Assembly (NCBI RefSeq): GCF_026571515.1 | Contig: NW_026864778.1 | Span: 1-64,000, forward strand | Origin: Ruditapes philippinarum | Lineage: Eukaryota | Length of the DNA: 64,000 nucleotides | Reading direction: 5' to 3' | Part shown: piece after piece, positions 18,262 to 64,000 of the stretch | Layout: each line of letters starts with the position of its first letter | Position numbering within the stretch: position 1 is the first letter of the stretch | The notes under the pieces: model-generated | Told to the model about the DNA's origin: nothing | What the model saw: only the letters and a program-made list of their open reading frames with translations | Database searches by the model: none | Translations under genes and position numbers: made by a program

Positions 18262-18746
18262 AGATTGTCAACACTTTTATTGCTAAGAATGAAAATGGGA
18301 GGTCAATTGATTTTATTATCAACATAACACTTAAGATAATATCATGACACTTGAATAACAACTGACCATAACAATTAATTGTAATATTCTTAATTACTTT
18401 ATCAGATTTGATATGGATCTGTAATCCCTAGTTACAGATTTAGTGTACCCTTATAAGTGCATAGTAATCTCCCTTTAAATGTAACAAATACTTTTAGTAA
18501 ATAGCTGAAACATAAGTATTATCGTCCCTAAAAGATAATGAATGTATCCACTCTCATAAAATACCAGGTACTATATGGGCCCCTGTATTAAGCATTTAAC
18601 TGTGATGTATTATTGAATGGGTTTAACATTACATTTTCTGTCATTTACGTTCCTTTTAAACGATCTGTTTTGGGAAAAAATCTTGACAACGTGTCTTAAC
18701 AGTGTCATTGTTACTGAAACTTCAACTAGAAAAAACAACGCTTGTT

Positions 18747-18781
<35 letters not shown>

Positions 18782-20768
18782 ACTTAAAGAACCAAAATAA
18801 TTGTTAACTAACAAAAGTTCCATGAGTAAACGAAATAAAACGCGAATAGTTTTCTCAGTCATCTTGTTATTTTGTTGATACTATTTATTCTACACCTAAA
18901 TATATTGTAAACATAATTTACTGAATACATTTCAGGCAAATATAAATTCAAAATTCAACTTTTGTTTTTGTTTTATTCATTACAAACATTTGTGACTTCA
19001 TATCTTCTTTTTTCTAAAATAAAGTTATTATTATTATTGTTTGTATACATATTCACTGTCATTTTGTTTATGTTTCTCTGACGATGTCAAAAATAAAGTT
19101 TCTGTTCTGTTCTGTTCAGTTCTAATATCTGTGAGGTAGCCGTTTTCTACTACATTATGTTATGTGATTCTATGTATGTGTGTATGTATGCATTTATGTA
19201 TGTCGCAAGTTTGCTTATGTTTCCCGCTATTGTGGGACTTTTGCATATATTGAAAATAAAATCTTGAAATCTTGTAAATTTTTCCTATCAGTCAGCCAAG
19301 ACAGAAATAATGGAAGGATATAGCAAACACCTGAAAATCAGATAACATATGAAACAATAACGAATACTTATAAATAAATCTTAACAATTTTACACCACTT
19401 AAGACTGATTGCAATTTAGCACCCTTTACTTCCTTTAATGATGTATAGAAATTAATGGAACGGAACAATATGGAAAATTACAGTTGAATTACAAAGTTAT
19501 GATACGCAATAAAGGACGGTGTTAAATTTCTCACTTAAATTAAGAACCTGTTGACATCTCATAAAGTTTTTTGTTAAATAAACGTTATTGTCCTACAATT
19601 AAAAATCTAATCGGTTTAAATTGGAAGATCTTTTAAAAGAATTTCAATAATGATTGGTAGCAGAAGAAAAAAATATGTCTATCGTCATCACATATGTGTA
19701 CGTCTATCGTCATAACGCATATTCCCGTCTGTCGTCAACATACAAACATATTACAAAAAAAAAGAAAAAAGGAAAGAACAAATAAAAAAGATACGCCGAG
19801 CTTCCTTCTTGAGACAAATAGACCATCAAAACTGCGTATCAGGCGTACATAAAGTTATAATGTCACAATGGAACATTAACTTTCTATAATGTGTGAGCAC
19901 TTTATGACGTTTTGTTATTACAATATGACATGACAACAGGCCATTATACGTATCTTCATCCGCTTTTACGTTATAATATTTGTAGAAGCCATCGTAAATT
20001 CACTAAGTACTGGTAGTGCTAGTGGTACACTAGGCAGAATTCTGTTTCGAAACGGTTTATAACAATCATGTTTGCATTTGTGAACTACAGCCATTGACCA
20101 TACATATTATTATTATTATTATTATCATGTTTTACTAGTCTCTTATAATTCAATGATTGAATGGTCATGTACTATTTTGTGTTTTATTTTTGCTTATGAA
20201 TTTTACTTGTGTATATAGATGAATGAGACTTAAATACATAAAATTATTATAAAATTATATTACATATACTGTAGATATGGAGAAACAATAAATATTATAA
20301 TATAGATAACGCTAACCAACTTGCAAATTTATGGTAGAAGAGAATTCTTTGGTATTAGATTTCTCCCCATGTGTATGCTGGGACTTAAGTTTTATTTATG
20401 CAAATTTTCTGTGTGTTGCCTTGTATGATAATTAGAATTTACATTTATTTACACACTTCCTTTTTGTAAAAGTGTATTTCTGAAATGAAGACTGCACAAT
20501 ATCACATTAAGTCCATGATTGCTCTGGTCGAGGAGTACTTGTTATCACTGGACTATAAGCTCCATCTTTTGACTTGAGATTAAAATTTTACAGTCAGTTT
20601 GACGGATGTTCATACAGATTGTCAACACATTTATTGCTGAAAATGAAAAATGGGAGGTCAATTGACTTTATCATCAACATAACACTTTAGATAATATCAT
20701 GACACTTGAATAACAACTGACCATAACAATTAATTGTAATCTTTTAATTACTTTATCTGATTTTATAT
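18262..20768 (+). repeat. Inverted, permuted duplicate of the region upstream of Hmx
   Basis: 18262-19002 = rc(35138-35828). 19030-19664 = rc(34258-34765). 19675-20608 = rc(39581-40520). 20592-20768 = rc(about 35675-35851). Confidence 0.92.
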
Positions 20769-34208: not shown

Positions 34209-34257
34209 ACCAGAAATCAAGGATATAAGACACCAATATAACATTTTACATATTTTT

Positions 34258-35851
34258 TCTGCTACCAATCATTATTGAAATTCTTTTAAAAGAACTTCCA
34301 ATTTTAACCGATTAAATTTTTAATTGTAGGACAATAACGTTTATTTAACAAAAAACTTTATAAGATGTCAACAGGTTCTTAATTTAAGTGAGAACTTTAA
34401 CACCGTCCTTTCTTGCTATCATAACTTTGTAATTCAACTGTAATTTTCCATATTGTTCCGTTCGATTAATTTCTATACATCATTAAAGGAAGTAAAGGGT
34501 GCCAAATTGCAATCAGTCTTAAGTGGTGTAAAATTGTTTAGATTTATTTATAAGTGTTCGTCATTGTTTCATATGTTATCTGATTTTCAGGTGTTTGCTA
34601 TATCCTTCCATTATTTCAATCTTGGCTAACAGATAGGAAAAAAAATAATCTACTTCATTGATATTAGAACTGAACAGAACAGATACTTTATTTTTGGCAT
34701 TTACAAGTATACATCGTCATACAAATATAGACAAAATGACAGTGAATATATAAGTAAATCATAATAACATATATGTGTATATAATAAACGTTGATTGATA
34801 TTTAATGAACGTATTCAAATGTAACAATTCTTACGTTATTCCATAATTCTATGATAATTAGCTTTAAAATAATACATAATATATAATTATATTTGCAGTC
34901 AAACTTGATTATAAAAGACAATTTTGAAGCAATACAAAGAAAAATCTTTAATATATTGAAGGAACATTTATAAAATTGTAACTTGTTCTGTCAGACCATT
35001 TTAATACAAAGGGGGTCGTTACTGACAAGTTCTAATGTGTAGAAAGTCCAATCTAACATTTCCCTTTACCGTACATATTTAATACACTATTAAAACGAGA
35101 TTTGTGATTTGATTAAGAACAGAAATGTATCTTTCATTATGAAGTCTCAAATGTTTATAATGAATGAAAAAATAAAAGAAGAAAGTTGAATTTATATTTA
35201 TTCAGTATTTTATGTGTACAATGTATGAAGGTGTAACATGTACAGTATCAACAAAAGAAAAACATGATGGCACTTTTCTTAGTAAAGAATTACTTTGGTT
35301 CTTTAAGTGCTGCAAAATCAAAATTACAAAAATCAATAACAGAAAAACAAGTGTTGTTTTTCTGGTTGAAGTTTCAGAAACAATGACAAAGTTAAGGCAT
35401 GTCCCAAAAAAAAAAACAGACCGTTTAAATGGAACGCAACGGACAGAAAATGTAATGTTAAACCCATTCAATAATACATCACAGTTAAATGCTTAATACA
35501 GGGGCACATATAGTACCTGGTATTTTATGAGAATGGAATTACATTCATTATATTTTAGGGATGATAATATTTTTGTTTAAGCTTTTTACTAAAAGGATTT
35601 GTTACATTTAAAGGGGGAGATTACTATGCATTTATAAGGGTACACTAAATCTGTAACTAGGGATTACAGATCCATATCAAATCTGATAAAGTAATTAAGA
35701 ATATTACAATTAATTGTTATGGTCAGTTGTTATTCAAGTGTCATGATATTATCTAAAGTGTTATGTTGTTGATAAAGTCAATTGACCTCCCATTTTTCTT
35801 TCTTAGCAATAAAAGTGTTGACAATCTGTAAGAACATCCGTCAAACTGACT
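34258..35851 (-). repeat. Hmx-upstream blocks I and II, duplicated in inverted form at 18262-19664 and partly at 20592-20768
   Basis: Long near-identical reverse-complement matches, e.g. CACCACTTAAGACTGATTGCAATTT and GATAATATCATGACACTTGAATAACAACTGACC. Confidence 0.9.
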
Positions 35852-38800
35852 ACAGAAAGTATCTGCTACCATGGGAAAAAAGTAAGCCACTATGAGAACC
35901 TTCCTAGCTTTGGACCAAAGTTTGGTTGTCGCCTGTCTTGTAAAAAAAATAAATCATTGTGATAATATTACACTTTCTCTTTCAATTCCAGTTTGCTTCA
36001 GTTTGCCCCTTTTACAATGAAAACAGGAGAAAATATATTCCAAAATTTTATAATTTTAATCCAAGTACATGTATGTTTAAATTTAAAGTACTGAGAATCC
36101 AAAGAGTATGTAAATTATAATGTAATACATCTAATGTTATGATGATGAACTGTTCGCTAAAATCTTAAAATCAACTTCTGTTCTCTTCTGAAATAACATT
36201 AAACCTCTTCCAGAAGCTTGTACCGAGAAAACTGCAAAATTAATTCTTCAGAAATAGGAATATTCATTTAAGCACTTTCAGAACGAATTCTTATCAATAC
36301 AACTAAATCTGCGGCCCATATTTTCCACTTTCATTTATTTACATCTCGAATCTAAACTAAACTTATAGCTTCTTTTGGTGATCTGATTTTACTATTTCAC
36401 CATTGCGAAATATTTGAAGTGAGTTGATCTTTGAAGGTTTTGGTTTATCTTTATTTTATTTATTCATATTTCTACTCCGCATAAGATTAAAGCTGATTAA
36501 AGTACTGGCTAATAATGCTTATTAGAGGTACCGAAAGTAGTTACGATGACCACTATATCTGCAGCACGTTGGTTATAGACAAATACATGTACAAATATTT
36601 AATATATATAAACTTTCTGCTTCAGCAACAAGTACCGATTATCTACGATTTTGTAAAAGCGATAGTTTTTAGAAAGTTTTGGCTATATTTGTAATGTAAA
36701 TTCTATATATGGAATATATATGATATTAAATCCCTTTTTTTTAAGTTTATAATAATGTATTATCATACATGTGTCGTACGTTTTGTCAAGATACAGCCTG
36801 CTATCACTACATGTTAGAGAGGGATTTTATTCAAGAAGCATAACTATATAGAAAGTTTAAGAACTTTAGCATTTTTAGATTATCAGGTTTTTACAGATAA
36901 CGGTTCCAGCTATTCGATTCTCTATTGACCATACGTACGTGTAACGTATTTTGCCGGTTTTGACATTCTTTAAAACAAAACTTACTACAACAGTCGTATA
37001 CATGTATATAAATGTTTCATATGATGTTGAAAATCATTTTATCGAGATTGAAAAACCTACACTCTAGCCCACTATCGCTAATTGATGGTGTCATTCTATT
37101 TCACCACTGACGGAAATGTACAATTTATAAAACAAAATGTTAATAAACACAACAAACAGAAAATTCGACATATAGTGTCATATAATCGGGACTAAAACCT
37201 TAAATGCAATGTGTATTTTAATTCTAGTGTACGTGTTTAAATACGGAATAACAGAAAAGACGCGGAAACATTACCCCTTACAAAATCAAATTTTATAAAT
37301 TTCTTTTTATTTATGAACAACGGCGCTTCTTTCTGTTGTCAAAGCATTATTAAAGTTCTTAATTTATTTTATAGTCTTATTCAATTATCTATTCATTTGA
37401 CTTGAATGTCACTAGAATTTGCTGTTAACTTTACATGTACACGCAAAGTATGAAAATAAATAAATATTGCCATACAGAATTATTATATTGATCTTATATC
37501 AGCCTCTTGTCTGTTAGACGCTCGTTTAACTTAGTTGTGTCGTTTACCATTCCTTGAGGTCATTTGTCAACAACTTTATTTCTATGTATGAAAAATGGGA
37601 GGGGAGTTTGTCTTATCATTTTATAGCACGAGGATAAAATCATGACACGATGGTCAGATTATTTGAACATTAACTAATTTTTATTTCATAAATATTGAGA
37701 TTTTTGTTGATTAAATCAGTAGGGCCGTGATACTTGTCATGAAACGAGTCAATATGTCTGGGTTGCAGAAAATATCCTGAGATAATCTATTAACCTTCTT
37801 CTTAAAATAATCATTTAATCGAAAGCATATATGATAGAATACGTATCTATCTAAAATAAAAAGTATTGAGATAATTTACTATGATAAACACTCGTTTATC
37901 ATAAAGCACACATTTAAAGCTGCACTTTCAAGGTTAGAAAGATTACATTTTCAACCTTATACTAAGTGAAAATTTGCCATTTGCACATGGCGAATTTATT
38001 CTATGTCTATGATTTATCATGTGTATACTAAAAGTCTATATAAAATATATGAAACAAGAAATGGGGATGGATATAACACGTGACCAACATTGTAAAAAAA
38101 ACTAATGTCCAAGTCATTTCATTTGTTCAATACTTCATAAAATAATGCTGAGAATTTCTTGGCCACTGGGACGCAAAAAGCACTTTGTTTAAATATCTTT
38201 ATTGTTTACAATATCTTTACTGTAAACGCATACAGTAAGTGAGATATTTCACAAGAGTTATGGTATCTTTAAGTGTTATAATTCCCACCTTTGGTTATGG
38301 TTTAATTTACAATATTGTCTGGACTGATTAACAATTTCCACTTCTTTAAAGGAAATTCAATTAACTTTAACTACAATAAATATTAAGTGATTGGAAATTG
38401 TTATATATTATTTTTGCAATTATCACTTTTTATTTTATCTGATCAAATCAATTGTTTCTCTTTCCGTCAAGTTTTTTTTTCAGGGGTATGAGAATTTCAA
38501 ATATATAATGTCCTGCTCTGTTGGTACGTCTCTTAAAACGATTTTGTACTATTTGATAAAAGAAATATATAAAAGATATTACAGGTGTTTTCTTTAAAAA
38601 ATAACAACATTTAAATCGCGTTGTGTATTGGTTTAGAAATATAACATTTTCATTAGTGTCTTAAATACATATACATTGTACTCATAACCTTTTAACTGTA
38701 TTCTAATTAACATATGTTTACGCACAGAATGTCTAGAGTTGGTGGGGTATACAACGAAACTTGTCTTTGTCTATAGTTCATATGTTTTACTTTTTGTTAC

Positions 38801-39580
38801 AAAAGAGTCTGTTAATATACGGAATGTATTATCAAGTTATGTTTGTAGGATATAAATATTCATGCCGCAGATGCGTTAGATATGTTAAACACTCTTTGAA
38901 ACTGTTTATGATAGAAGAGATTACAATACAGTGAATACTTGATTTTTATTTAAACATTATAACCTCCTTCAAAGCCAAGACGACAATATGGAAATTGTAA
39001 CAATTGCCAGAGGTTGGGGTTACAAAATATAAAATTTGTCGATTTTTTTCATTTTTGTATAGATCTAAATCATAACATTGAAGAGATAAAATTAAGTTAC
39101 ATTTTCATCACAATGAGCGGGACTTATAAATGATTATCGGTTGTCATTTTTTTTTACTTAATTGTGATTTATGAACATATAATAAATGGAAAGGATAAAA
39201 AACACTGAATGTATATGACAAAGCATCTGTTTAATACGGGTAATCTATTATGTAACAAGTTTACTTTATTTCCCGTTTAATACGGGTAATCGCTATGTAA
39301 CACGTTTACTTTATTGCCCGTAGAATACGGGTAATCGCATTAACAAGTTTACTTCATTGCCCGTAGAATACGGGTAATCGCTATGTAACAAGTATATTTC
39401 ACTGCCCGTTTAATACGGGTAATCACTATGTAACACGTTTACTTTATTGCCGGTAGAATACGGGTAATCGTTATGTTACAAGTTTACTTTATTGCCCGTT
39501 TAATACGGGTTACAAGTTTTCTATTTATGTGATGACTGGCATCATAGATACAGGCAGGAAATATTCTTTTGTATACAAAT
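35852..39580. other. 3.7-kb segment bounded by 17-bp direct repeats and absent from the paralogous copy
   Basis: CATCCGTCAAACTGACT at 35835-35851 and 39581-39597. The paralog has one copy with both flanks joined (rc of about 20583-20625). Confidence 0.8.
39229..39519. repeat. Minisatellite, about 45-bp unit, 6-7 copies, palindromic core
   Basis: AATACGGG recurs at 39233, 39279, 39324, 39367, 39412, 39457 and 39502. The core is TTGCCCGT-N5-ACGGGTAA. Confidence 0.92.
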
Positions 39581-40520
39581 CATCCGTCAAACTGACTGTA
39601 AAATTTTAATCTTAAGTCAAAAGATGGAGTTTATCGTCCAGTGATAACATGTACTCCTCGACCAGAGCAATCATGGACTTAATATGATATTGTGCATTCT
39701 TCATTTCAGAATACACAAAGTACGAGTGTAAATAAATGTAAATTCTAATTATCATACAAGGCAACACACAGAAAATTTGCATAAATAACCTAAATCAATA
39801 TATCATTTTTATAAATAAACACACATGAGCACAAAGTATGAACCAATAAAGGCTTCGCATAAACTTGGTTTAATTAAAGTCCCAGCATACACATGAGGAA
39901 AAATCTAATACCATGTCCAAATCCATAAGCATAACTTTGCAAGTTGGTTAGCGTCATTTATTGTTTCGCAATATCTATATGTAATATAATTCTATGATAA
40001 TTTTATGTATTTAAGTCTCATTCATATATATACACAAGTAAAATTCATAAGCAAAAATGAAACACAAAATAGTACATGACCATTCAATTAGTGAATTATA
40101 AGAGACTATTAAAACATAATAATGGTAATAATATGTATGGTCAATGGCCGTAGTTCACAAATGCAAACATAATTGTTATAAATCGTTTCGAAACAGAATT
40201 CTGCCTGGTATACCACTAGCACTACCAGTAATTATCAATCATTGATCACGATGGCTACTACAATTATTATATCGTAAAAGCGGATGAAGATACGTATAAT
40301 GACCCGTTGTCATGTCATATTGTAATAACAAAACGTCATAAAGAGCTCACATTATAGAAATGTGACATTATAACTTTATGTACGTCTGATACGCAGTTCT
40401 GATGGTCTATTTGTCTCAAGAAGGAAGCTCGGCATATCTTTTATATTTGTTCTTTCCTGTTTGTTTGTATGTTGACGAAAGACGGAAATATGCGTTATGA
40501 CGATAGACGTTCATATATGT
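39581..40520 (-). repeat. Hmx-upstream block III, duplicated in inverted form at 19675-20608
   Basis: E.g. GCCGAGCTTCCTTCTTGAGACAAATAGACCATC and CAGAATTCTGTTTCGAAACG are shared in reverse complement. Confidence 0.9.
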
Positions 40521-40705
40521 AATGACGTGCGGTAGACGTACATATATGCGATGACGATAGACGTTCATATATGTGATGATGACAGACATGGATATATGTG
40601 AAGAAGATGGAAATAGACACGTGTGATGACGATAGACGTACGTATTTGTGATGATGAAAGAAGATGACGATAGAAGAATATATATATGTGTGTGATGACG
40701 AAAGA
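40495..40705. repeat. Degenerate simple tandem repeat (GATGACGATAGACGTWCATATATGT-like)
   Basis: Seen directly; a shorter inverted counterpart lies at about 19675-19740. Confidence 0.75.
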
Positions 40706-49447: not shown

Positions 49448-49795
49448 CCCAGCCAACATTCTATATCGGCCCGACATCAAACCTATATGGTTTTCTATAA
49501 CGGCCCGACATCGGATTAAATCTCGGCTGCAAATAGGAATGATGTCGGCCCGACATCGGTAGTACAATATCGGGCCGATGTCTTAACAATATCGGCCCGA
49601 TATTTCTTGCCTACATCGGGCCAACATCAAATCAACATCGGCCCAATATTTGTTGCCTACATCGGGCCAACATCAAATCAACATCGGCCCAATATTTCTT
49701 GCCTACATCGGGCCAACATCAACCTGATATTTCTTACCTACATCGGGCCAACATCAAAACAATAGCGGTGCGATGTCAGCCAACAGAAGATATCA
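49448..49795. repeat. TIR plus subterminal repeat array of the EnSpm/CACTA element
   Basis: More than 10 copies of ATCGGSCCRAYAT in both orientations, including a higher-order repeat TTGCCTACATCGGGCCAACATCAA. Confidence 0.88.
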
Positions 49796-50456
49796 GCCCT
49801 ACATTGACCACGTATGATCCTTAGGCTAGCCTGTTGATTCTGACAAGCAACAGGCATTTGGCATAGCCTGCAATTTAAACATTTCTTGTTGTTAACTTCC
49901 TTAAAGGAGAAACAAAATCACAACAAATGAACTAAATTCAATAATCAATTTTAATAATTCTAAACAATGACAAAATTTGATCACATTATTATCATTAAAA
50001 TCACATTGGTTGAAAGACAACTTTGATATAAGAAAAATGCATGTTTTATTGAGATATCAACAGTTTTAATTTGAAAATTAAGGGCATGGAAATGACAAAA
50101 TTTGATTTTTAAGTGTTTAAAGCAATGTATTTTAAGTACTTTGAATGCAATGAATCTTTGTTTATATTCTGATTACAACAGATACAGAATACCTAAAATG
50201 AAAGAAGTTTGTATACCTATTTGTTGGCATCAATCAAAAGAAACATGCCCCAAAACAAAGGTTAAAGACACTAGAGATGCTTTAAAGATCTTATCAATTA
50301 ATCTTTTTTTTCCTTTGAAAATTGGAGAGAAATAGCAATTTATACATATATTACCTTAAGACTAGAGTAACAATATATATACATGTTTACAAATAATGAA
50401 AAGAACTGTTTATTTGAAAAAAATTATGAAATCATAAAATAATTAACAAGGAACAC

Positions 50457-51221
50457 AAACAAGAGCTGTCGGTAGGACAGCAACGCTCGACTATTCTAGT
50501 GCTTGATAGTAAAAAATAATGCTTGATAGAGTTACCTACTCCTGTTTACAGGTTGGTGTCATGATGGTGAACAAGTATGCAAAGTTTCAAAGCCATATGT
50601 CAATGGACTTTGAAAATATTTGAGTTATTACAAAAAACTTTAACGTAAATTCTAAGTCGAAAAAGGGGCATAATTCTGTCAAAATGCTTGATACAGTTAC
50701 CTCCTCCTGTCTACAGGTTGGTGTCATGATGGTGAACAAGTGTGCAAAGTTTCAAAGCCATATGTCAATGGACTTTGAAAATATTTGAACTATTACAAAA
50801 ACTTTAACATAAATTCTAAGTCGAAAAAGGGGCATAATTCTGTCAAAATGCTTGATACAGTTACCTCCTCCTGTCTACAGGTGGGGGTCATGATGGTGAA
50901 CAAGTGTCCAAAGTTTCAAAGCCATATGTCAATGGACTTTGAAAATATTAGAGGTATTACAAAAACTTTAACATAAATTTTAAGTTGAAAAAGGGGCATA
51001 ATTCTGTCAAAATGCTTGACAGAGTTACCTCCTCCTGTCTACAGGTTGGGGTCATGATGGTGAACAAGTGTGCAAAGTTTCAAAGCCATATGTCAATGGA
51101 CTTTGAAAATATTTGAACTATTACAAAAACTTTAACATAAGTGGCTACGCCGACGCGGACGCTGACGCTCGGGTGACTACAATAGCTCTACTTATTCTTA
51201 TCGAATAGTCGAGCTAAAAAA
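50457..51221 (+). mobile_element. Helitron/Helentron-like non-autonomous element with a 164-bp internal tandem array
   Basis: 5' AACAAGAGCTGTC and sub-TIR GCTCGACTATTC / GAATAGTCGAGC followed by TAAAAA. TAATTCTGTCAAAATGC at 50671, 50835 and 50999 (period 164, about 3.8 copies). GCCGAC/GCGGAC microrepeats near the 3' end. Confidence 0.85.
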
Positions 51222-52869
51222 CAGTAAAATATAACTGACTTATTTAAACGAATTGGACAACAAACATGACTAAAATAAAACAAAATTGTTAATGAATATA
51301 AACAACCTCAACAAACTGCTAACATTAAAAAAAGATATGTCATGCAAATATATAATTCAATTATGCAGATTTTACAAATATTTATATCCGTAAGATAAAA
51401 ATACATCAATATGAACTTGTGATTAGACTATTTATGTAAGAGTGTAATTTCCAAGCAAGATGGTAAAATACTGAATTTAAAAACTTGAAAAATAAATATC
51501 TTCAAACCTTACAATTAATTTATGGTTGTTATTTAATTTGTATCTGGAGAAACATTGAATGTAAAAATCAATGACTTTCAAATTGAATAATAATGAGTTT
51601 AATTGGCACAAAGAATAACATATAATAAATTTGGCACAAGACTGATGTAAAACATATTAAATCATCAACAAAATAAAATATATAGAGAGTGTCAAACAAG
51701 TTAATCATTGTAAAATTTAATACTGGTTGGCATTTTAAGCTATAAAAAACATGGTAATAATTATTACATTATGAAAACAAATGCATAAATATTTGACTCA
51801 AATGAAAAACAAGCTGGAACAAAAAAAGCTATATAGTTACTTGCTGCAAAATAACTATTTGTGTGTGTGTCCAAGTACAAAAATAAAGTTTAAATACCGA
51901 ACCTCTTGTCTCTTATTACATAAACCGCGGCACAGGAGTGTAATAAAGCCATTTAATAAAACCGATATTACACTAGTGTAATAACAATTTTATGGGACAC
52001 ATTTGCACTATCTATAAACATGGCCTTAAAGCAACTGTAAACTAGAGCAGTCATCGATAGAGACAATATCATTGATATTTTTCTGTCTAACAATAATCAA
52101 TACAAAATTGAAAAAAATTGATTGTTTAAAGGTCTATAAAAAATGAAAATTCACTAAAAAGATACACAAAAGCAGATGGCCGTGTCTAACACTAAGCTGT
52201 TGCTCCATAATGGACACATTTCATAGCAGTTATGACAAAATATAACCGGAAAAAAATCATGCAAAGGTACACAACCTATCTATTTTACTTAAATCATTTA
52301 AACAGGTATGAAATAGAAGTATTATATACAAGAAAATAAGAGTATTTTTAGATATATTGGTGTAATGCCAATATTTAGTCAGCCGATATCAATGTATCGT
52401 CAATATGCTTTGCACTGAATCTATGACAGCACTACAATAAACTTTTCTTTTTTTGAATATGTGATAAATAGAGTATAATATTTGTCTAGATTTAATACTT
52501 CATTTATTTAAATTGTTGAATAAAACAATATTATGTGATTTTATTCAACTTGTTCAATAAATTTAGTATTAAACCTATTCATTCAATATCCTCTATATAT
52601 CAAGGGAAAATACTTAAAAATAAAAAAATTACTTCAACTTCTGTCAGTGCAAGGGACCCACTAAATTTCATGATACTGACATTTTTAAATCAATGATTTT
52701 TCCCCATGCTTTATCAAAGCTTTCACATTGGTGATTTACAGAAAAAAAGAGAGAAAATAAATGGTGCATAACTAGTAAAACAGTATTTAAATGCTAATGA
52801 AAGTTCTCATGTTTTATCAGTCCATGTAAGTATAATTATGTATCTTTTTTGGAGGACAGTTTTGAAATC

Positions 52870-55800
52870 TCAGTTTTCTAAATTTTCACTTGAGGTATTT
52901 GTGGCTGCCTTTCTATTTTTACGACCTCCCTCACGGTCTTTGGCTGTCCTCAACCATTCTCTGGTTATAAATTCGACCTCTGCTGTGGTTGTTCCTGGTG
53001 TGGTCTTCTGCACTGCCTCTGTAAATTACATAAAAAACGCAATGTTCATTTGACTTTTTTACAGTGATATTCTCTGTACGTCTTGTTTAAATTTTTGCAA
53101 GTTAAGGAAATTATTTGAATAAGTTCACCTGCTCTTCATTGTTATGACAACTGAAATGTACATACCTTCAAAACGTTTGAGTAACAAATAATGGGCTTTA
53201 TACTTTAATAGATTTTGAATTTCTGAATAAATAACAAACATAAAAGTTTGTCTGCTTTTTTTTCATTTTAATTGATAGATTACTCAGAAAGCCAATCTAA
53301 AACAAGATTAATCAGAAAACCAATCCAAAACAGTACATTTATGCAAAAAAAATGCAAAAAAACTTTATGACTTACTACAAATCACTTCCGCTATTTTCAA
53401 CGATCCAAATTTAAGCTTTCCTTTCTTTCCGTACCAGTTGTAACTCTCTGCCAAACGGCTTTTGATTACATGGCTCAGAATTCGCCTGACCATATCTGGT
53501 GTGTTTTTCCCGCCAATCAAAGACAGGTAGTTGACCTGAAATGTTAAGTGTCATTAAGGCTTAACACTAAAACAGTATTTAAACATAACAAAATTTCAAT
53601 TTTTGAAAAGAACTGTAATGAAAAGAACTATGAATATGAAGAAATAATTTTTTAAAAAACAAATCTCATTATCTGTTTTCATAGTACATGTATTTAATGG
53701 TTTTTACTGTATCCTTCAGCTTTTACAGCTAAAATTACATGTTTTAAAATTTACAAAAAAAGAACAAAATTCGATAAATTTATCATTGTATAATGAATTG
53801 GCCAAAAACAAGCATTTGCTTTCAGAGGCACTTATTAAAGGGCATTGAGACAGTACATGTATATATACTGATAGAGAAAAAATACGCTTGTAGAGACAGG
53901 TTTTCTTACCATGTTGTTAAGAACAGCCTGTTGTCTCAACTCTTTTTCTAACCCTTCAACATTCTCCAAAGATTGGAGGGGACGGGTAATACCTTCAAGC
54001 AGACTGAAGGTACTGGAGCTGCTCGCTTTTGACGCTCCTAGCTCCTGAACCATATCTAGAAGAGTTTCAAGCATTCTGCGTTGCTGGTTTTGTTCGATTC
54101 TGATTTTTTCGATACTAGTGAACACTTCTCTTGAGAAGCGAACATGATCTCTATCTAAAATTTGGCAAGAAAAAAAATGTTATTACACAAAATCAGGAAA
54201 AAAATCACAGTAATGTCATGGTTCTCAAGGCTAAATGTTCATCCTTAAGAAAGATGACAAGTCCTAGCTTGATATAAACAACATTAAACTTTTACGCAAT
54301 TAATCTTATATTAGCACCCATTGTTTTTTAAGAAATTACCCTGACCTTTTTTTTTGGAGCAAATTATGAAGAGAAGTCAACCTCAATTACATAAATGCAA
54401 AGCTAATTATCAACAAAATACAAAAAAAGGTATGTATAACTAAAAAGGCCAAAACATACTTGCATCTGGAGCTGCTGTTTCTTGCGTCTTTGAGCCAACT
54501 TTCACATTTGGAGTGGTTGCCAATGGGATACGTGGCGGTGGTTTAGGAAGAGATGGCGATTTTGTTGAAGGCAGTGGTGATGAGATGGAAGACAGTGGTG
54601 ATGAGATGGAAGACGGTGGTGAGATGGAAGACGGTGGTGATGATTTAGAAACTGTCAAAAGCATTGATTGAACTTCTTCCTGAGACCCTTCCTCTGTTAT
54701 CTTACTGCGTGAAACAGCAGTAAAATCATGCCTGTCCTCATCTTCATCAGATGAAGAAAATACTGTTTTTCTAAAATAGTTAAAAACATAACCCCTGTAT
54801 TAATTTAACATAATAATGCTCTAATCAAGGGAAAATATTCAATATTTAATTATTTACATGTTATGTGGGATATATGACTGATTTAACAGTATCAATCACT
54901 ATAATTTTACTGCGTTACTAACGCGTAGACGTTACTAATGCAGTAAGAGTAAAGACGTATTTATGTATATTTGGATCATTTTTTTTTTAATTTACATAAA
55001 CTGTAATTGCCGTTTGCAATTATTTCTTCTTTGTTCAATTCATAGTATTTACTTTAAAATACATTTTTAAAATTTTCATGAAAATAAGCATGATTCTGAT
55101 GGCATGCTGCTTTAAAGACTTTAGTAGGGATGTTGTTGACAGTACCTTTAATCAATGTACTGTATTCCATATGCATTTATTTTAGTATAATTAATTCTAC
55201 AAGTGGCCAGATATCAGCTACATGACCCTAGTCATTGAGCATTTGAAAGCTATTTGATTTTTTTACATGATATAAAAAAAATTATAATAATTGTGAGTGT
55301 CATCACTGATGGTGACTGAAAGATACTAGAGAATGTTTTTTAACATTTCACAATTAACTTCTAGCCAAGAAAAAACAGCTACCTGATTTTTCTCTTTGAT
55401 CGGCGGTATGAATCTGCCTCATCTTCACTAGCCTCTAAGGCAGTTGCTAGGTCAGATTCATCTTCTGCTTCACGCAGCTTCTTTCGTACCTTATCATATG
55501 ATTCTACAACAGCAATAATTTAAATATATTAATTTTAAGTAGTTTAAGCCAATTTTGACCACAATGTGATATTAACAATGTAATTCAATCAATATTTATA
55601 AGCATGACAAAGAAAGTGTAATTTTACATTTTTTAAGACAAGCCTGATTCAATTGAAATTTTCTTTTAAAATTACATGTATTCAGTATTTGCAATAATCC
55701 TTACTTACACAAAAGGATATATTTACATATAAATACAAACATACAAATCTGGTTGAAAGTAAATCAAAATAATCAAATTAACACAATTTACCATGTTCGT

Positions 55801-55981
55801 ACAATTCACGGATTGGGAAGGATTGCCAATCATCCTGCGGCTCCATCTTCTTCATTGCAGCTTTAGTAATTTTAGAAGATACCTTCCAGCTTGGCCATAA
55901 AGCACATTTTGTTCCATCACGCCATTTGTCCGGAATTACAGCTAAACATTTTTCATCAGTGAATTCAACTAGCACGTACAT
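52870..55981 (-). CDS. DUF4806-type transposon accessory protein, 6 coding exons, 391 aa
   Basis: Exons 55981-55792, 55503-55383, 54770-54460, 54154-53910, 53535-53376 and 53018-52870. All introns are GT-AG, phases are compatible, total 1176 nt with no internal stop. N-terminus MYVLVEF...AVIPDKW...CALWP...YDKVRKKLREAEDESDL; C-terminus YLSLIGG...VRRILSHV...YNWYGKKGK...EWLRTAKDREGG. Confidence 0.85.
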
Positions 55982-57344
55982 TCTAAATGTAGTAACACAA
56001 ACATTCCAACAAACTTTCAAAAGAAAGTGATGAAAATGTACCAATATTTTACAATATAAGTCTTTATTGCTTAGACAAATGGATTCACATTTGCAGATTT
56101 TTTTTATACATATACAGGGCTGTGATTTTCTTAAACTATAAAATGTCAGCACATATCTACCTATTTCATGACACGGTTTTGTTTGCTAATATCTAAACTT
56201 TTACAACAATTTTTAATGATTGTACATGTACATACTTTCCCTTTCCAGAAAGAGACCTAACGAAACATATAAATTAGGTCAAACATAACTACATTCTGAA
56301 TTGCTAAAATTTCTCTTAAGGTTTTTTCCACAGCGTTTTTCCCCCGTAAATAACTGATACCTGCAAACGGCACCCTTCCCAATAGAAAATAAACAGCAAA
56401 TATCCTGAATCATGACTGGTAAACTCCCTAAACAAAACTGAAATTTACCACAAAAATTGGCAAAATTCAAGGTAAAAAAAACCCCCAAAAAAACAGTAAT
56501 GGATGCCTCCATATTTATTAGTGATTTACAATAAAAACCAAGTATAACCACATGAGTAATATTCGTACCCAATTCATTTCGTACTTTCAACATCATTTAT
56601 ATAAAATTTTATCAATTTTTTTTTCAACCTTAAGAAATCATACATGGTTTAAGAGTGTATATTTTACTTAGATTAATGAATATTTTGCATCTTTTGTAAA
56701 ATTCCAAATTTCAGTAAAACCCATGTCAAGTACTGGCACTATTCCAAATGCAGGGAAACTAAACCACTGTTCCATATAGGTTGTTTGTTATACTCCTACG
56801 GATGAGAAAGGGGCCGAATATCTCAAATAAAAAATACTGTAAAACCATGTTGTAAAATGCACAGGAGATTCAATAGAAATTTTTTTATATCTTTTACTTT
56901 AGGATATTTTTGCATAAGGAAAAAACCTTTAATCAGTTGTAAAATATAAGGAAAAAACATCAATTTAACTTGTTTAGCTTCTTAGGAAACACATAAAAGG
57001 CCTCCAAAATGCCTTTATTTCTCATAATCATTTTAATTTTGGTGTATTTATAGTATCCAAAAAGTTACTCTTTGGCCAATTACTGGAACCATCTTTTTCA
57101 TCTGTTGCTTTTTGGAAATAATTTAACTTACAGTGACTAAGTATTTTGTATCGAAGTCAAAATAATACTTTGTGACAAATAACTTCACATTTATCGCTAC
57201 TTTTCAGGTAATAATTAAGCATTTACAAAAATGTAATATCTCTGTAAAACCACTGTTTAACCATTATAAAAATGAATGTTTTCCTTTTTTAAAGAAGTAA
57301 AAATTTATTTAATTCTAAGGCTTAATTAATGTGTAAAAATTACT

Positions 57345-59102
57345 TTATAATGTGTGCAGAAGGGGAATGGTCAAAAACTTTTCCTGGAAAGGTAAGAGAA
57401 CACACTTGAAAACCTCACAAGCTTTGGTAACTTTCATTTCTCCAGTTAGACCAGAAACTACAAAAATTCTAAGGTCAGATGAAAGTAAAGGAATATCAAA
57501 GAAGTTAGAGACATCTCCAAATTCCTCATATATTAGTGACTTTTCTTTGTCAGTACTTTCACAAACTATGTTTCTTATAAGACCAACTTTATCTCCAACT
57601 AAAATGCAATTGTCACCAGTTTTTACAGAAAAGTACACTTCTTTTAACTGCAGTTCTTTGTATTGTTTTTGAAGCCTAACCTGCGGACTGATTGGTCCAT
57701 TAATGTGATTTTTTTTAACAACACCAGATGTTTCAACTTTTTGTCTTTTATTTGGTTGCCAATTACTATTTTCAGACAGTCTTCGTATTACTTGTTGAAG
57801 TGGAAAATTTGGTTTTCTTACAAGTCGTTTCAACTTCCCTAGGAAACTCTCAAATATGAACGCTGAAAAATTATCCAGAACACCATGTTTTTCTACATCA
57901 CCTGCCAAGTGGACTAAATTATGAACATTATAGACAACTGTGTCTTGACCATATATCCTTGCAAAGTCATGCACAAACAAGCGTAGAAGGTCGTTTGCAT
58001 AATTACAATACACACTACAATAAAATGGGCTGGAGAGACAATATATAGCAACAAACAACAACATAAAGTGCTTATAGGTTGAGCGTGAAATAGTGCTGAA
58101 CAGGACGCAAGGACCGGTATAGAGTAAAAACTGTCTGAGTTCTGTTGCTTTCCATCTATCAATCTCATTCAAAGGTCTCCCTTTCCTCAGGAACTCTCGT
58201 GGAAGGTACTTCTGTAAACCTATCAGTTTCTCTGAAATTAAGGCTACAGACCTGGCGGCAATCCTACAATTAGATTCCAGGGGGCCTCTCATCCATAACA
58301 GAAGCAAACGTTTAACAACGCCTAAACATACTAAGTGCATATAATCCAATGGGAATTGTGAGACCATACCAATGGAAAGATTCATTAATGGTGAGCGACC
58401 TAGATGGTGTCCTTCAGAAGACAATTCATTGAACTGAAAATCAGTTCTCAAAGGGGAATCAATTAAAGGAAATGTCATTTTGCCTTTCCAACAACCTTTT
58501 TGCATACACTTATCACATCCATGGTAACCACTGTGACCCTTAATCTGCTTAACATATGCCTTAGCAGGGGCATCACATATAATGGCTGATAAATTCACTT
58601 TCAAATACTGATTTGTTTCTTCTACATGCAAAAGATTCTGTTCAAGATACTGCATTTCTTCAACAAAGTCATGCAAGAATGCATTTACATCCCCTGGCTT
58701 TGAATTGCCTACATAAAGTCCAATTACAAATGGCTCAGATGAAAATGGCTCAACAAGTCTACCTAAAATTGGCCAAAATTGAGTGTTGGAACTCTTGAAT
58801 AAAGGCAAACCATCTATATTAATCTGAATAGACAAACTGTCAGCTGCACAAAAAGAATATGTTGGCTCTTTCAACAAAATTTTTTTTAAGCCTGCAGAGA
58901 TGCCAAAGTGGTGGTAAGATCCGCCATTCATTTCACTGATTTCATACACTTTTTTCGTCCTCAACAAAGTTCGTGGATCTTTGGGGAGAAAGTCATGGTA
59001 GGTACTTAAAATATGTAAAAGTTCATACACTGCAGTGTGTGGAATGCTGAACTTTGTTACCCAACCTGCCAACTTGTCCTTCAGATCAATTTCAATATCA
59101 TC
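57345..59102 (-). CDS. EnSpm/CACTA-type DDE transposase, catalytic portion (interrupted upstream)
   Basis: LPKDPRTLL, INIDGLPLFKSS...FWPIL, ICDAPAKA...KGHSGYHGCDKC, DYMHLVCLGVVKRLL, RWKATELRQFLLY, YNVHNLVHL, FSAFIFESFLG; no stops over 585 aa. Confidence 0.93.
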   Translation of the reverse strand, partial: DDIEIDLKDKLAGWVTKFSIPHTAVYELLHILSTYHDFLPKDPRTLLRTKKVYEISEMNGGSYHHFGISAGLKKILLKEPTYSFCAADSLSIQINIDGLPLFKSSNTQFWPILGRLVEPFSSEPFVIGLYVGNSKPGDVNAFLHDFVEEMQYLEQNLLHVEETNQYLKVNLSAIICDAPAKAYVKQIKGHSGYHGCDKCMQKGCWKGKMTFPLIDSPLRTDFQFNELSSEGHHLGRSPLMNLSIGMVSQFPLDYMHLVCLGVVKRLLLLWMRGPLESNCRIAARSVALISEKLIGLQKYLPREFLRKGRPLNEIDRWKATELRQFLLYTGPCVLFSTISRSTYKHFMLLFVAIYCLSSPFYCSVYCNYANDLLRLFVHDFARIYGQDTVVYNVHNLVHLAGDVEKHGVLDNFSAFIFESFLGKLKRLVRKPNFPLQQVIRRLSENSNWQPNKRQKVETSGVVKKNHINGPISPQVRLQKQYKELQLKEVYFSVKTGDNCILVGDKVGLIRNIVCESTDKEKSLIYEEFGDVSNFFDIPLLSSDLRIFVVSGLTGEMKVTKACEVFKCVLLPFQEKFLTIPLLHTL

Positions 59103-59104
59103 TA

Positions 59105-62100
59105 TTGCCTGCTGCACAGTAAATGGGCCAATTGTGTTAGCATCTAAGTCAAAAAATAAAGTTAAACATACAAGACAATATTTGCTCTTTTTAAGTACCT
59201 TAGGGTGTCTATAACAATATTTTTGGAAAGAAAGGATAACGTTTTGGATACCTTTTTCAAAATATTACATCTTTTGCAGACTGTGCGGGTAGGGGACGGA
59301 TGTTACAAAGATATACTTAAAGTCTGAATATCTTACAGTTTATAATAAAAGTTGTATTATTTCTCTTTATTTTATTAAAATATTATGTGTTCTGATAAAT
59401 GTTACAAAAAAATCCAGAAAATTCATCTTAGATATAAAAATATTTGCTTTCAAATTTTCAGTATTTTTCACACAAAATTAAATTTTCAAACATTTTAGAA
59501 ACAGAGAGAAAAAAACAAGGATAGGTACACCAAATCATACTTAAATCAAATATGCAATCACATTTCTTATAAAACAGTAGAAATTATAGGACTTGCTTAT
59601 GTATATTTCTTGTCAGATAATCCAAAAATGAATTGTATCTGGGGGACGGATGTTACATTTTTGGGGGGACGGATGTTACATTCGATGTTTTAAGCTCATA
59701 GTTCATACTTTTTTTGTTTTTATTTTAAAGTAATGAAATTTATAAGAGTATATGCTTTGTACAGTACAATAAATGTAAAATAACTGAACAAATTATGAGA
59801 AAATTGTAGAAATATACCTGACAATTATGAAGTTTCTTACTATTTGTGTTTCACAATGAAAAGTTGCATTGACTTAGTTTTCTTACACTTATTATCTTAC
59901 ATTTGAATGAACATTGAAATGTTTGGAATAAAATAAAAACATTGCTAATTAAATAAAAGAATCTTTGTTTCCAGATAATGCATTAACGTTAAAGAGAGAA
60001 TGTCATACCAACGGTACCTTTCTATACATGAAATTATTTACAAAATACTTTAGTTAAATATTAATAAGATTTATATTTTTAAAAGATATGATACAGTGTG
60101 AAGTAAATAAGAAGTTTTCAGATTGAAACATATGCAAGCTTGAATTTCTCATTACTAAATACATAAATTATACACAATTAAAAATTTTCATTAAAAATTA
60201 TAAGATTTTAAATTGTTGCAATTAAGTTCTATCGATTTGATGAAATTTTAAGTAAATTAATGTGGAATGTTAGCAGCATTATCCAAAGATTTCATTATGA
60301 TTCAGTATCATAATCTCATTATTTCTAACTTTTAATAATTGTCTTTGTAAATATTTCAGTGTACATGAACTGCTTAACTTAATGAACTAATTTGTCATTC
60401 AATAAAATTTATAGGTGCAAAATAATTTGCCAAGGGTTTATTTACAGAATAATTTTCACAATTATCCCAACTTTTTCATTACAGGAATCCTTACCATATC
60501 CTTTACTTACAAGTTTCTTTCACTTTATTAACAATAATTAAATGGGTCAAATTGTAAGAAAATGTGCTTGAGTTTTTATGGGGAAAAAAATCTAAAAATT
60601 TTAATCAGGGTGTTGAATTATATTTCTTTGTTTAATTTTCATTGACTACATATTTAGCCTATAAATTTTTGAAGTTCAATAAATCCTTTGACTTAATTGA
60701 TCTTCAACTTAAATACTTAATGACAGACATTCTTGAATAAGATATGGTAGTCCCTCCCACTGTTTTTAAGCATAATATATATCACCCTTAATATGCACTC
60801 CTACTGTTTTGTAATATATCATACTTCCCAATATACAATATACACAGCTCCCAATATACAGCTCGTTAACTTCCAATAAAGTGCCAGCCCCTTCTGTGTG
60901 TATAGAGTTAGGATCCATATCCCACTGTTTTATGAGGGGCTGGGATACATGGTTTGTTAACTATTTAAGGCTAAAGAATTTATGTTTAAACAATTGACCA
61001 ATTTTAATCACAAAGATACTTTCAACATCTCTATCGTTTGCACCTTTTTCTATATATCCTGTTATGGATTTTGTGTTTGTTTCCTCTAGTTTTTTTTTTA
61101 ATTGTATTTTATTTGTTGTGTGAAACATTCCTACAGTTGCAAAGCTTACTAACTTCTCTATCATGCATCATAAGAACAAGATAAATTTTGTATTACTGTA
61201 AAAAGAATTTTTAGTTCAATTCTGTAACATCCGTCCCCTTCTGTACTCTTAGTTTGTAAACATAGCATGACAAAAAATTATATTTGTTATAAATTTATAT
61301 AATCTTAAATATTATCTTAATAAACTCATTGGTCCACTTGAGGTTAAAAAATAACATATAAATTTTATTTCCAAGTAAATATTTTTGATTTCAGAGCAAA
61401 AAATACTGATTTTTTTTCAAAATTAAGGAATATAGTGTTCACAAATTTTTTTTTTTTATAAATACATCATTTCAGTGCTTTATTTCTGTTATTTCTTCAT
61501 TTTTCAATGTAACTTTGGTGTTTAAGTGTAAAATTCCCTTTTCAGTTACAGTTTATATGAGATTTAATAAGAACCTTAAATAGGGGGACGGATGTTACGG
61601 GGACAGATGTTACAGACAACTTTTACATTATTGTATTTTTTTTCTCATAAACATAGAAATTGGCAATTTTTGTAACATTTCCATTGTAAGGCTATCATTA
61701 AGCACCAGAAACATTGTTTTTTATGAGTTTTGTTTTAAAATTAGATATTTTATGAGAGGGGGACGGATGTTACAGTTTTTTCATCACAAAATTTTTTTTA
61801 CCACTATAATGCCTACTATGGTAAAATTGTTTGAAAATTTGAATTGAAAGCACTTAACATATGTTTTTAATTCATATTTCATTAGATTGAGACAATAAAG
61901 TACTATTTTATTTGTAACTGCTTAAAGGTATACTTGTTTACTTAACAACTGAATTTTGAAAAAACTGATGCATTACAAAAGTCTGATTTTACTAAAATCA
62001 TCTTAACGATAAAAACCAGGATGATGTATACCAAGTATTATATATCACTGGAAAGGTTATTAAATTTTCTATGTGCATGTAAAAAAATTTAAGTGATAAA

Positions 62101-62370
62101 TTAAAACAGATAATAGTGGTGTTAATTCTAAAAACACCAAAAAAACAGATGCTAACACATTACATGTAAAAATGGACATTTTTAGGGTATAAAAACGTCT
62201 GTATCTTTATTTTGGGTAATGCTATCCCAAAAAAATTTTGGGCACATTTGCTTTATAGTAAGTCCTTTGTAAAAACACAAAAAAATAATAGAAAATGCAA
62301 TATATTTTTTGAAAAAGCCTGCATTACATGTATTTTTGAAAAATTGGCCCATTTACTGTGCAGCAGGCAA
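59105..62370. mobile_element. 3266-bp TIR element with TA target duplication, inserted in the transposase ORF
   Basis: Perfect 29-bp TIR TTGCCTGCTGCACAGTAAATGGGCCAATT (59105-59133; rc at 62342-62370). TA at 59103-59104 and 62371-62372. Seven internal GGGGACRGATGTTAC motifs. Confidence 0.92.
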
Positions 62371-62634
62371 TATGCTTTCTTCTGATGAGGAAGTATCAGA
62401 TATATCATCAAAACTCAATGTTGAATCATCTAAGTTCTGATCAAAATTAATTTGCAAAATTTCATTGTGCTGTCTATCACATGCAGCTTCTCCCACTATG
62501 TCATCAGAAGTTACGTTCGATTGATTACCCTCACTACAATTATTCTGGTCATTTTCACTTGTGTCATTGTAAACAAAATCCATGTGCTCCCTAACATTGG
62601 ATCTAATTTCTCGGTAAGACCTCCAATAGGACAT
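62371..62634 (-). CDS. N-terminal 88 aa of the EnSpm/CACTA transposase
   Basis: MSYWRSYREIRSNVREH...SSSEESI joins in frame to DDIEIDLKDKLAGW when 59105-62370 and one TA are removed. Confidence 0.88.
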
Positions 62635-64000
62635 ACTTGCTTACAATTAGTACAAGGATTATTTGGTTTGCCAAGCTATAGACTACGTATGTGTAGGCAA
62701 TCCAAATCTAGGGTAATCCGAATCACTTCATTTAATTTCTTTTTAATCCAACAAAAACAAAATGATGTTCCAAATGTTTCAATGAATTCAAAGAATCAAT
62801 GCATATAAGTATACAAAATTTAGCACCTGTGTGTAGGGAAATATATGTTTCGTGTGATCCAGAAGTACTTGAATGACAAGTTTTTCAGATAACCTTTGTT
62901 TTAAATGAAGGCTTTAAAATTTTGATCTGCAGTGTATATTTTACATTTCTTTTCTCATGTTGTAGGGTAATCAATTAATAAATTTTCGCGTTGTTTTTCT
63001 ATTTTTACTGCAACAGTAGATCTATAACAGATGGTAATAATGTGATGTTTAAGAAGAAAGAAATGACACCAGTTCCTTTCAGATTATGTCATTTAAATAA
63101 AATATAGCTTTCGATATAAAGGTGATTCTAATTGCCTACACTAACTGTATACCCAGCACTATCACCTTTAAAACAGAAAATGAAAAATAAAAAAATGAAT
63201 GATTATTTTAACCAACTTCCCTGCTCATATTCATATCAATTAAAGAAAAAAATCCAGTAGAAGGGAAAGCATGTACATGCACATTAATAAATTGTGAAAG
63301 TGAAAATTAACAGCAAGTATGCAAAACACAAACATATTTTTTTTTACAAAATAAGATTATAAAAGCGAATATTTAGTACATTCTAACTTTGATGTGCAAA
63401 TGATAAATTATCACTGCCCTGTTAATGCATGTCGCGAAAATATGTAACAAATATTTTCAACCTTGATTTTACATTAAAATCAGACAAACAAATAAATGGT
63501 TTATTTTTCCAATCACTTAAAGTGTTAAAATCAAATAATTAACAATGTTTACACATTTGATAAATCATCATTACTTTAAAATATATATAATTTCATCACC
63601 TTCCTTTGATTAGCTTTTTGGCGCTTGTTCTGTTGAAAGTAGAAATGCAGTGAATATTTGCCAGATTTGCATTTAAATTATAATTGAAGAGTGTTTTTTA
63701 TGTGCTTAGAAAATAAATATTGAATTCAATTACAAACAACATATCATTTTAAAACTCAGCTAAAATTATTTTATAAATTCATATCAAAATGTACAATTAT
63801 TTGCTGCATGGTAATCAAGGGAGGGAATAAACCTAACAGAATTCCCTCCCTTGTCTACTACAAAAAACCGGACAGTAAGACAGTACGTAAATATAATAAG
63901 TAAAGAACAACGGTGTTTCATTGGAATTAATTTATTTCATAATATTTCAACGATTTAACAAAATATGGATATGTGACAGAAAACGCAATATCGTACCGAT

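What the first reader, a model, noticed from the sequence alone, without database searches (positions are those of the whole stretch)
57345..62634. Transposase ORF split by a TA-flanked TIR element; precise removal restores a 673-aa protein
Seen: what looks like an intron between ORFs 62353-62634 and 57345-59117 is a 3266-bp insertion with perfect 29-bp TIRs and a TA duplication. Removing it gives ...GAA GAA AGC ATA GAT GAT ATT GAA... (EESIDDIE), so 88 + 585 = 673 aa with no stop and intact DDE motifs. The LPAAQ and MQQA ends in the ORF track are TIR sequence. Inference: a recently active autonomous element was knocked out by a recent second insertion and could be restored by precise excision. 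TTGCC termini with a TA TSD match no superfamily consensus I can name with confidence.
Basis: seen in the sequence. Interest (0 to 1): 0.7.

Follow-up and report, generated by a model that had tools for sequence, protein, structure and literature searches.

The report
Sola2 transposon inside an EnSpm-type transposase
A gene-less jumping element, likely of the known Sola2 kind, has landed inside the enzyme gene of another jumping element in a probable clam genome; this is ordinary nesting, although a one-letter mismatch at some landing sites may hint at how Sola2 elements move.

Summary
The insertion is real: removing 3268 bp restores a stop-free 673-aa ORF, and the uninterrupted EESIDDIE junction exists in a 98-99% identical sister copy and in 8 of 8 sequencing runs laid. 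The element is 59106-62369 (3264 bp, 28-bp TIR, TGCC..GGCA) with a 4-bp duplication, not TA: 36 of 48 two-ended copies have a perfect 4-bp TSD (consensus ANNT). Decayed coding copies with the same TIR carry a transposase with Sola2 motifs, and a 4-bp AT-rich TSD is the published Sola trait. The host is an 11.6-kb CCCAG-ended EnSpm-type (CMCT) element whose transposase model matches RAG1/Transib. So this is a non-autonomous Sola2 copy nested in an EnSpm-type element, not a new superfamily. No intact mobiliser was found. One oddity remains: in 4 of 4 imperfect TSDs with a readable empty site, including this one (CTAT/ATAT), the base touching the TIR is changed to the family consensus. That could be donor-flank carry-over, gene conversion or a polishing error.

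The parts
59106..62369 (.). Non-autonomous TIR element, likely Sola2 (TGCC family), 3264 bp, no coding remnant
   Evidence: longest stop-free stretch 87 aa; no tblastn hit from two intact Sola2-type proteins at E<0.01
59106..59133 (+). Left TIR, 28 bp, starts TGCC
62342..62369 (-). Right TIR, 28 bp, identical to the left
59102..59105 (+). Left copy of the 4-bp target duplication, CTAT; equals the empty site
62370..62373 (+). Right copy of the duplication, ATAT; the base touching the TIR differs from the empty site
59292..61774 (.). Seven copies of a 16-bp internal motif (59292, 59642, 59665, 61584, 61599, 61759 on +; 61223 on -); same layout in the coding copy L113; inferred transposase-binding sites
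   Evidence: 353 exact matches in the genome against 1 control
62371..62634 (-). Host transposase codons 1-88; the N-terminal SYW helix aligns with relatives, the rest is a variable acidic linker
57345..59102 (-). Host transposase codons 89-673 and stop; DDE, C(2)C and H(3)H motifs; predicted RAG1/Transib-like fold
49448..64000 (-). Host EnSpm-type element; starts CCCAGCCA at 49448 and ends TGGCTGGG at contig base 64292, beyond the window; AA on both sides; 11,577 bp without the insert
49569..49757 (+). Subterminal repeats of the host element; inverted copies near its other end
53835..56185 (-). Three ORF pieces inside the host element (55778-56185, 54440-54799, 53835-54179); inferred exons of an accessory gene, not verified
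   Evidence: weak DUF4806 match E=0.024, below cut-off

Best explanation
A gene-less 3264-bp DNA transposon, likely a Sola2 element moved in trans by a Sola2 transposase, sits in the coding sequence of an EnSpm-type transposase and splits its 673-codon frame. Shown: the element belongs to a family of roughly 100 copies with 28-bp TGCC..GGCA TIRs and a 4-bp AT-rich duplication (consensus ANNT); longer, decayed copies with the same TIR and motif layout carry a transposase with the Sola2 DDD motifs; the target here was CTAT at codons 88-89, in a variable linker. Inferred: the Sola2 transposase binds the TIRs and the internal 16-bp motifs, cuts the element out and joins its 3' ends to target strands 4 bp apart, and gap filling makes the duplication. 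Inferred: the insertion is young and rare, and this host copy can no longer make full-length transposase but may still be moved in trans, as both its ends are intact. Ordinary excision would leave both 4-bp copies and a frameshift; only loss of one copy restores the frame.
For: TSD: 36 of 48 two-ended copies (from 97 stretches examined) have identical 4-mers, 11 have one mismatch, 1 has two; at 21 of 28 outer positions that depart from A..T both sides carry the same non-consensus base, which fixed TTGCC ends cannot give. With these ends, 35 of 47 matched at 4 bp against at most 1 of 47 at 3 or 5-8 bp. Empty sites hold a single 4-mer. Coding relatives: L113 has the same left TIR, the motif array and a degenerate right TIR, 72-78% DNA identity to the insert in shared stretches, and DFSENY / WTDGCASQYK / ETSHGKGPCDG motifs, matching the Sola2 alignment in PMC3627910 Additional file 10 (compared by eye). 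It is 53% identical to the intact 744-aa P0042. Sola elements have 4-bp TSDs and variable ends (PMC10741241); AWWT in Dictyostelium Sola2. Youth: host CDS differs from the sister at 8 substitutions and two 1-bp indels in 2022 nt; all 8 runs laid show the joint 59102/62371. Host: model pLDDT 93.5, best Foldseek hits RAG1 (E 8.9e-9) and HzTransib (E 2.3e-7).
Against: No intact TGCC-type transposase was found in this assembly (150 of 227 and 60 of 405 candidates scored), and L113 is too diverged to be the direct parent, so the mobiliser is inferred. The Sola2 call rests on motifs compared by eye, not on a profile or a tree with named Repbase sequences. This copy's own TSD is imperfect. The nearest of 30 other full-length copies is 2.4% away, more than the 0.4% between the host copies, so the source copy was not sampled. 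Run contigs cannot be tied to this locus and drop rare variants, so rarity of the insertion is not proven.
Confidence: 0.88

Rival explanations
1. The insert is a TA-duplicating element with TTGCC ends of an unnamed superfamily.
For: The window copy alone reads that way, and most ends have a T before TGCC (89 exact 29-mers).
Against: The inner dinucleotide is TA in only 13 of 36 perfect copies; 40 ends have A, G or C before TGCC, and the outer bases match across the element at 21 of 28 informative positions.
Confidence: 0.02
2. The insert is a CMC-type (Chapaev or EnSpm) element with a 2-bp TSD whose old CAC terminus gained about 10 bp.
For: CACAG or CACGG lies at TIR positions 10-14; many related transposases in the genome sit in CAC..GTG elements with 3-4-bp TSDs, the published Chapaev hallmarks (PMC4079192).
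Against: The coding relatives lack C(2)C and H(3-4)H between the second and third acidic residues and match Sola2. The TIR of the nearest intact relative (L162, CGG ends) has CAC at the same internal place, so it is an internal motif. The TSD is 4 bp.
Confidence: 0.03
3. The insert is spliced out as an intron, so the host gene still works.
For: On the coding strand the far TSD ends in AG and cryptic GT sites lie upstream; in-frame joins of about 610-640 aa that keep the catalytic core exist on paper.
Against: No GT at the exact boundary; the GT inside the TIR gives no in-frame join to the acceptors at the far junction; no pyrimidine tract before the AG. The exact 3268-bp skip is in DNA runs, so it is the empty allele.
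Confidence: 0.03
4. The family is moved by a different, still intact transposase, such as the 982-codon Sola2-type ORF of L162, and not by a TGCC-type enzyme.
For: L162 is intact, has a 97% identical sister, and belongs to the nearest intact clade; no intact TGCC-type ORF was found.
Against: Its TIR differs at most positions, and it lacks the 16-bp motif.
Confidence: 0.07

Closest known systems
Sola2 DNA transposons (Sola superfamily; PMC3627910 passages and Additional files 10 part 1 and 11; PMC10741241 and PMC10294476 passages)
   Same: DDD transposase motifs in coding relatives, 4-bp AT-rich TSD with A first and T last, short TIRs, 2-9 kb size; Sola2 is already reported from bivalves (14 curated consensus sequences in PMC10294476).
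   Different: This copy is non-autonomous; TGCC ends are not among the ends shown in the file I read; some imperfect TSDs lean to the consensus base. Whether the family is already in Repbase or Dfam could not be checked.
EnSpm/CACTA-type elements of the CMCT clade (PMC12730594 passages), for the host
   Same: DDE with C(2)C and H(3-4)H, RAG1/Transib-like model, 2-bp flanking duplication, subterminal repeats, over 10 kb.
   Different: Ends are CCC..GGG, not CA..TG; single-exon 673-aa transposase. That animal EnSpm families can end in CCC is recalled, not from a call.
piggyBac at non-TTAA sites (PMC7351741 and PMC8717057 passages; Li et al. 2013 seen only as cited there)
   Same: 4-bp TSD, DDD enzyme, asymmetric TSDs in which one side takes the canonical letters.
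   Different: piggyBac carries all four donor bases; here only the base touching the TIR is affected, and in a minority of non-consensus targets. A functional analogy only.
Tc1/mariner non-autonomous elements
   Same: About 30-bp TIRs; the model of a related transposase has a similar RNase H core (Mos1 Z 9.1, rmsd 3.3, 163 aligned).
   Different: No invariant TA duplication.

Membership tests
Sola2 (insert family) | DDD transposase with Sola2 motifs | tested here: met
   In coding relatives L113, L162 and P0042, compared by eye with the published alignment; D233, D320, D358 invariant or nearly so in 69 aligned proteins. Absent from the window copy itself.
Sola2 (insert family) | 4-bp target site duplication | tested here: met
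   36 of 48 perfect; empty sites
Sola2 (insert family) | AT-rich AWWT-like target | tested here: met
   Among 35 perfect copies A first in 29 and T last in 27
Sola2 (insert family) | Terminal inverted repeats | tested here: met
   28 bp, identical
Sola2 (insert family) | Grouping with named Repbase Sola2 proteins by tree or profile | not testable with these tools
   No Repbase or Dfam; Pfam gave no significant match
Sola2 (insert family) | Terminal consensus given in the founding paper | not testable with these tools
   Bao et al. 2009 not held; a review calls Sola ends very variable
Tc1/mariner (insert) | Invariant TA duplication | tested here: not met
   4-bp variable TSD; inner TA in 13 of 36
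Chapaev (insert) | CAC..GTG termini | tested here: not met
   TGCC..GGCA
Chapaev (insert) | [quoted passage not shown] | tested here: not met
   Not present in the L113 core
CMCT clade, EnSpm-type (host) | DDE with C(2)C and H(3-4)H | tested here: met
   D185, D265, C284/C287, H482/H486, E506
CMCT clade, EnSpm-type (host) | RAG1/Transib-like fold | tested here: met
   Foldseek E 8.9e-9, TM about 0.5
CMCT clade, EnSpm-type (host) | TSD of 2-5 bp | tested here: inconclusive
   AA on both sides in this one copy; the sister's right end is lost, so no second case
Canonical CACTA (host) | CACTA/G termini and 3-bp TSD | tested here: not met
   CCCAGCCA..TGGCTGGG with AA; filed as EnSpm-type, not canonical CACTA
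CMCT clade, EnSpm-type (host) | Placement in EnSpm rather than Mirage or another CMCT lineage by phylogeny | not tested
   No named references on hand; weak DUF4218 matches in relatives (E about 1e-5, below cut-off)

The most novel reading that the evidence does not exclude
Sola2 transposases cut so that the excised element keeps one donor-flank base as an overhang, and this base is sometimes fixed at the new site. This would explain why, in all 4 imperfect TSDs with a readable empty site, the base touching the TIR has the family consensus and not the target's letter. It would be a piggyBac-like but one-base carry-over and a first handle on the chemistry of a superfamily for which my PDB sequence search found no relative.
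Probability: 0.35. Interest if true: 0.5.

Novelty: new member of a known kind. Interest (0 to 1): 0.27.

Why it matters
The nesting itself is ordinary and adds a Sola2 family and an EnSpm-type element to a bivalve repeat library. It is a useful warning: an ANNT target makes a single Sola copy look like a TA-duplicating element with odd ends. If the consensus-biased imperfect TSDs are real and not a polishing error, they make the cutting geometry of Sola2 testable. The young insertion also implies that a Sola2 transposase was active recently in this species.

Tried and rejected
Variable 2-bp TSD (my first reading): rejected once copies with non-T/A outer bases were compared. A 10-bp extension of an old CAC end: rejected. 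Chapaev identity of the mobiliser: rejected on motifs. C14527 transposase near a TIR end: an EnSpm-type ORF about 7 kb from the TIR, not linked. The Sola1-type ORF in L127 and the LTR-retrotransposon ORFs in L116/117: nested insertions, not the partner. Pfam: no match for the host halves or significant match for L113 pieces. PDB sequence search: nothing for either transposase. Foldseek for the Sola2-type model: no hit at E<=0.001; the wide search gave integrase, IstA, TnsB and Mos1 cores at Z 8.8-10.9 and no RAG1 among the 50 rows shown, which does not exclude it. A six-frame Pfam scan of the insert did not run, so coding remnants were tested only by ORF length and tblastn. Empty-site look-ups for L105 and L106 were uninformative; a look-up among fetched loci found none for 11 copies. 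Genome-wide counts of far-base against adjacent-base departures (44 against 40) do not discriminate. Ten more stretches gave two further old two-ended copies (ACAA/ACAA, CATT/CAAT) that are not in the 48. One search counted 47 copies; the recount added L127. Four look-ups of earlier findings gave nothing on this family. Seven paper searches did not turn up a description of this family; most subscription papers and Repbase Reports are outside the library.
Full report
Observation. The inverted repeat, the TA on both sides and the arithmetic are as described: removing 3268 bp leaves 673 codons and one terminal stop with EESIDDIE at the junction. The first 88 codons start with an SYW helix found at the N-termini of relatives, and the break lies in the variable acidic linker behind it. 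Only two close copies of the host gene were found in the genome. The second, on C11019, is 98.8% and 97.8% identical on either side, has different outer flanks, and has the empty site. Its CDS differs by 8 substitutions and two 1-bp indels in 2022 nt.

Empty alleles elsewhere. Of 24 runs listed I laid 8. All 8 have a contig that skips exactly 59103-62370, and the long host-gene contigs listed have 0 gaps and 0-4 differences per piece. Five of these runs are marked as possible sources of the DNA, three are only guessed to be RNA, contigs drop rare variants, and none can be tied to this locus. They show that the intact gene is common, and suggest without proving that the insertion is rare.

The host element. 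It runs from 49448 (CCCAGCCA) to contig base 64292 (TGGCTGGG) with AA on both sides and subterminal repeats. Its transposase has D185, D265, E506, C(2)C and H(3)H, the motifs that PMC12730594 (passages) gives for the CMCT clade. The model (pLDDT 93.5) matches RAG1 and HzTransib. It has thousands of relatives (4014 of 7966 candidates scored). It is an ordinary EnSpm-type element, not a canonical CACTA.

The insert family. The 29-mer has 89 exact matches, a 20-mer with up to 2 mismatches has 191, so about 100 copies. The 31 full-length copies aligned lie a median 2.5% from their majority. At first the TSD looked like a variable 2-mer. But 40 ends have a base other than T before TGCC. With ends set at TGCC..GGCA, 36 of 48 two-ended copies have identical 4-mers, 11 differ at one base and 1 at two; 21 of 28 non-consensus outer positions match on both sides. 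These copies were picked by TIR matches, not at random. About 9-12 mismatched TSDs are expected from decay alone, so the overall mismatch rate is unremarkable.

The mobiliser. Searching for the internal 16-bp motif led to L113, which has the same left TIR, the same motif layout, a degenerate right TIR about 8 kb away, and a decayed transposase between them. L164 to L167 are further decayed coding copies. The motifs match the Sola2 alignment in PMC3627910 Additional file 10 (part 1 of 2 read), and that paper gives AWWT 4-bp TSDs for Sola2. PMC10741241 gives 4-bp TSDs and variable ends for Sola, and PMC10294476 reports Sola2 in bivalves; both read as passages. In a tree of 24 cores L113 pairs with the intact P0042 (100/99), and these join the clade of L162 with weak support (83/80). 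A model of the L162 core (pLDDT 90.2) has an integrase/Mos1-like RNase H domain. A protein 99% identical to the L162 core is labelled Mya arenaria, so the genome is probably that clam. No intact TGCC-type ORF was found.

How it works. Shown: boundaries, TSD length, family, coding relatives, empty site. Inferred from general DDE/D chemistry (my knowledge): a Sola2 transposase supplied in trans cut the element out elsewhere and joined it to CTAT with a 4-bp stagger. The host frame now stops 8 codons past the junction. Ordinary excision would leave both 4-mers and shift the frame; loss of one 4-mer restores it. No excision product was seen. Splicing rescue is possible on paper only.

The oddity. 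The window's TSD is CTAT/ATAT while the empty site is CTAT. For three other mismatched copies paralogous empty sites were found: L187 (TTAA in 5 of 5), L193 (TAAG in the 4 empty paralogues; its right flank departs from them after a few bases, and a second contig repeats the filled form) and L195 (TTTG in 5 of 5). In all four the base touching the TIR is the changed one, and it has the family consensus. By my rough estimate, neutral decay would give this pattern about nine times more often by changing the far base of a consensus target, so four of four is unlikely by decay. Two copies with the opposite pattern (L105, L106) could not be resolved, and 21 non-consensus positions are copied perfectly. 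Candidates: donor carry-over as described for piggyBac at non-TTAA sites (PMC8717057, PMC7351741, passages), about 0.35; polishing error from reads of other copies, about 0.3; gene conversion between ends, about 0.25; decay, about 0.1.

Limits. Bao et al. 2009 and Yuan and Wessler 2011 were not held; Repbase and Dfam were not available, and the library in the supplement of PMC10294476 was not read and may already hold this family. PMC4079192, PMC3014272, PMC4455052, PMC3845634 and PMC3485254 were read as passages.

Verdict. A real, recent nested insertion: a likely Sola2 non-autonomous element in an EnSpm-type transposase. New member of a known kind; interest 0.27.

Noticed in passing
L162, L169-L181 (intact Sola2-type elements): Ends are CAC, CGC or CGG. 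Apparent TSDs are 4 bp in some (L170, L173, L175, L177, L178) and 3 bp in others (L162, L169, L179, L181), one copy each; L169 and L170 are one family with 3 and 4 bp. CAC ends with 3-4-bp TSDs would be filed as Chapaev without the protein.
   Followed up: partly
run X7 (organism B) on window 57345-62800: A differently labelled organism has the host transposase gene with 3 differences over about 2.2 kb but only the ends of the insert: close relative, label error or horizontal transfer.
   Followed up: no
L127:540-5550: An insertion of about 5 kb in a TGCC copy holds a 794-codon Sola1-type ORF and a 252-codon F-box-like ORF (names from recalled motifs).
   Followed up: partly
L116:1500 to L117:4790: An LTR retrotransposon (gag, protease, RT, integrase ORFs) is nested in a TGCC copy.
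   Followed up: no
L006, L016, L018, L019, L027: The same left end with the same flank occurs on five contigs, so one insertion was amplified inside another repeat; other shared flanks appear.
   Followed up: no
G000:C11019 (L078): The sister host copy has its own 5.6-kb insertion without a long ORF at the place matching window 55199, and lacks the right end. Its two 1-bp indels are not seen in the run contigs and may be assembly errors.
   Followed up: partly
window 18292-20743 and 34253-40647: Two inverted, 91-97% identical copies of a repeat, broken into blocks.
   Followed up: no
window 50468-51140 and 39204-39560: A 164-bp tandem repeat inside the host element and a 45-bp tandem repeat outside it.
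   Followed up: no
L107:4940-6965: A 675-codon C2H2 zinc-finger ORF lies about 1.2 kb from a truncated TGCC copy.
   Followed up: no
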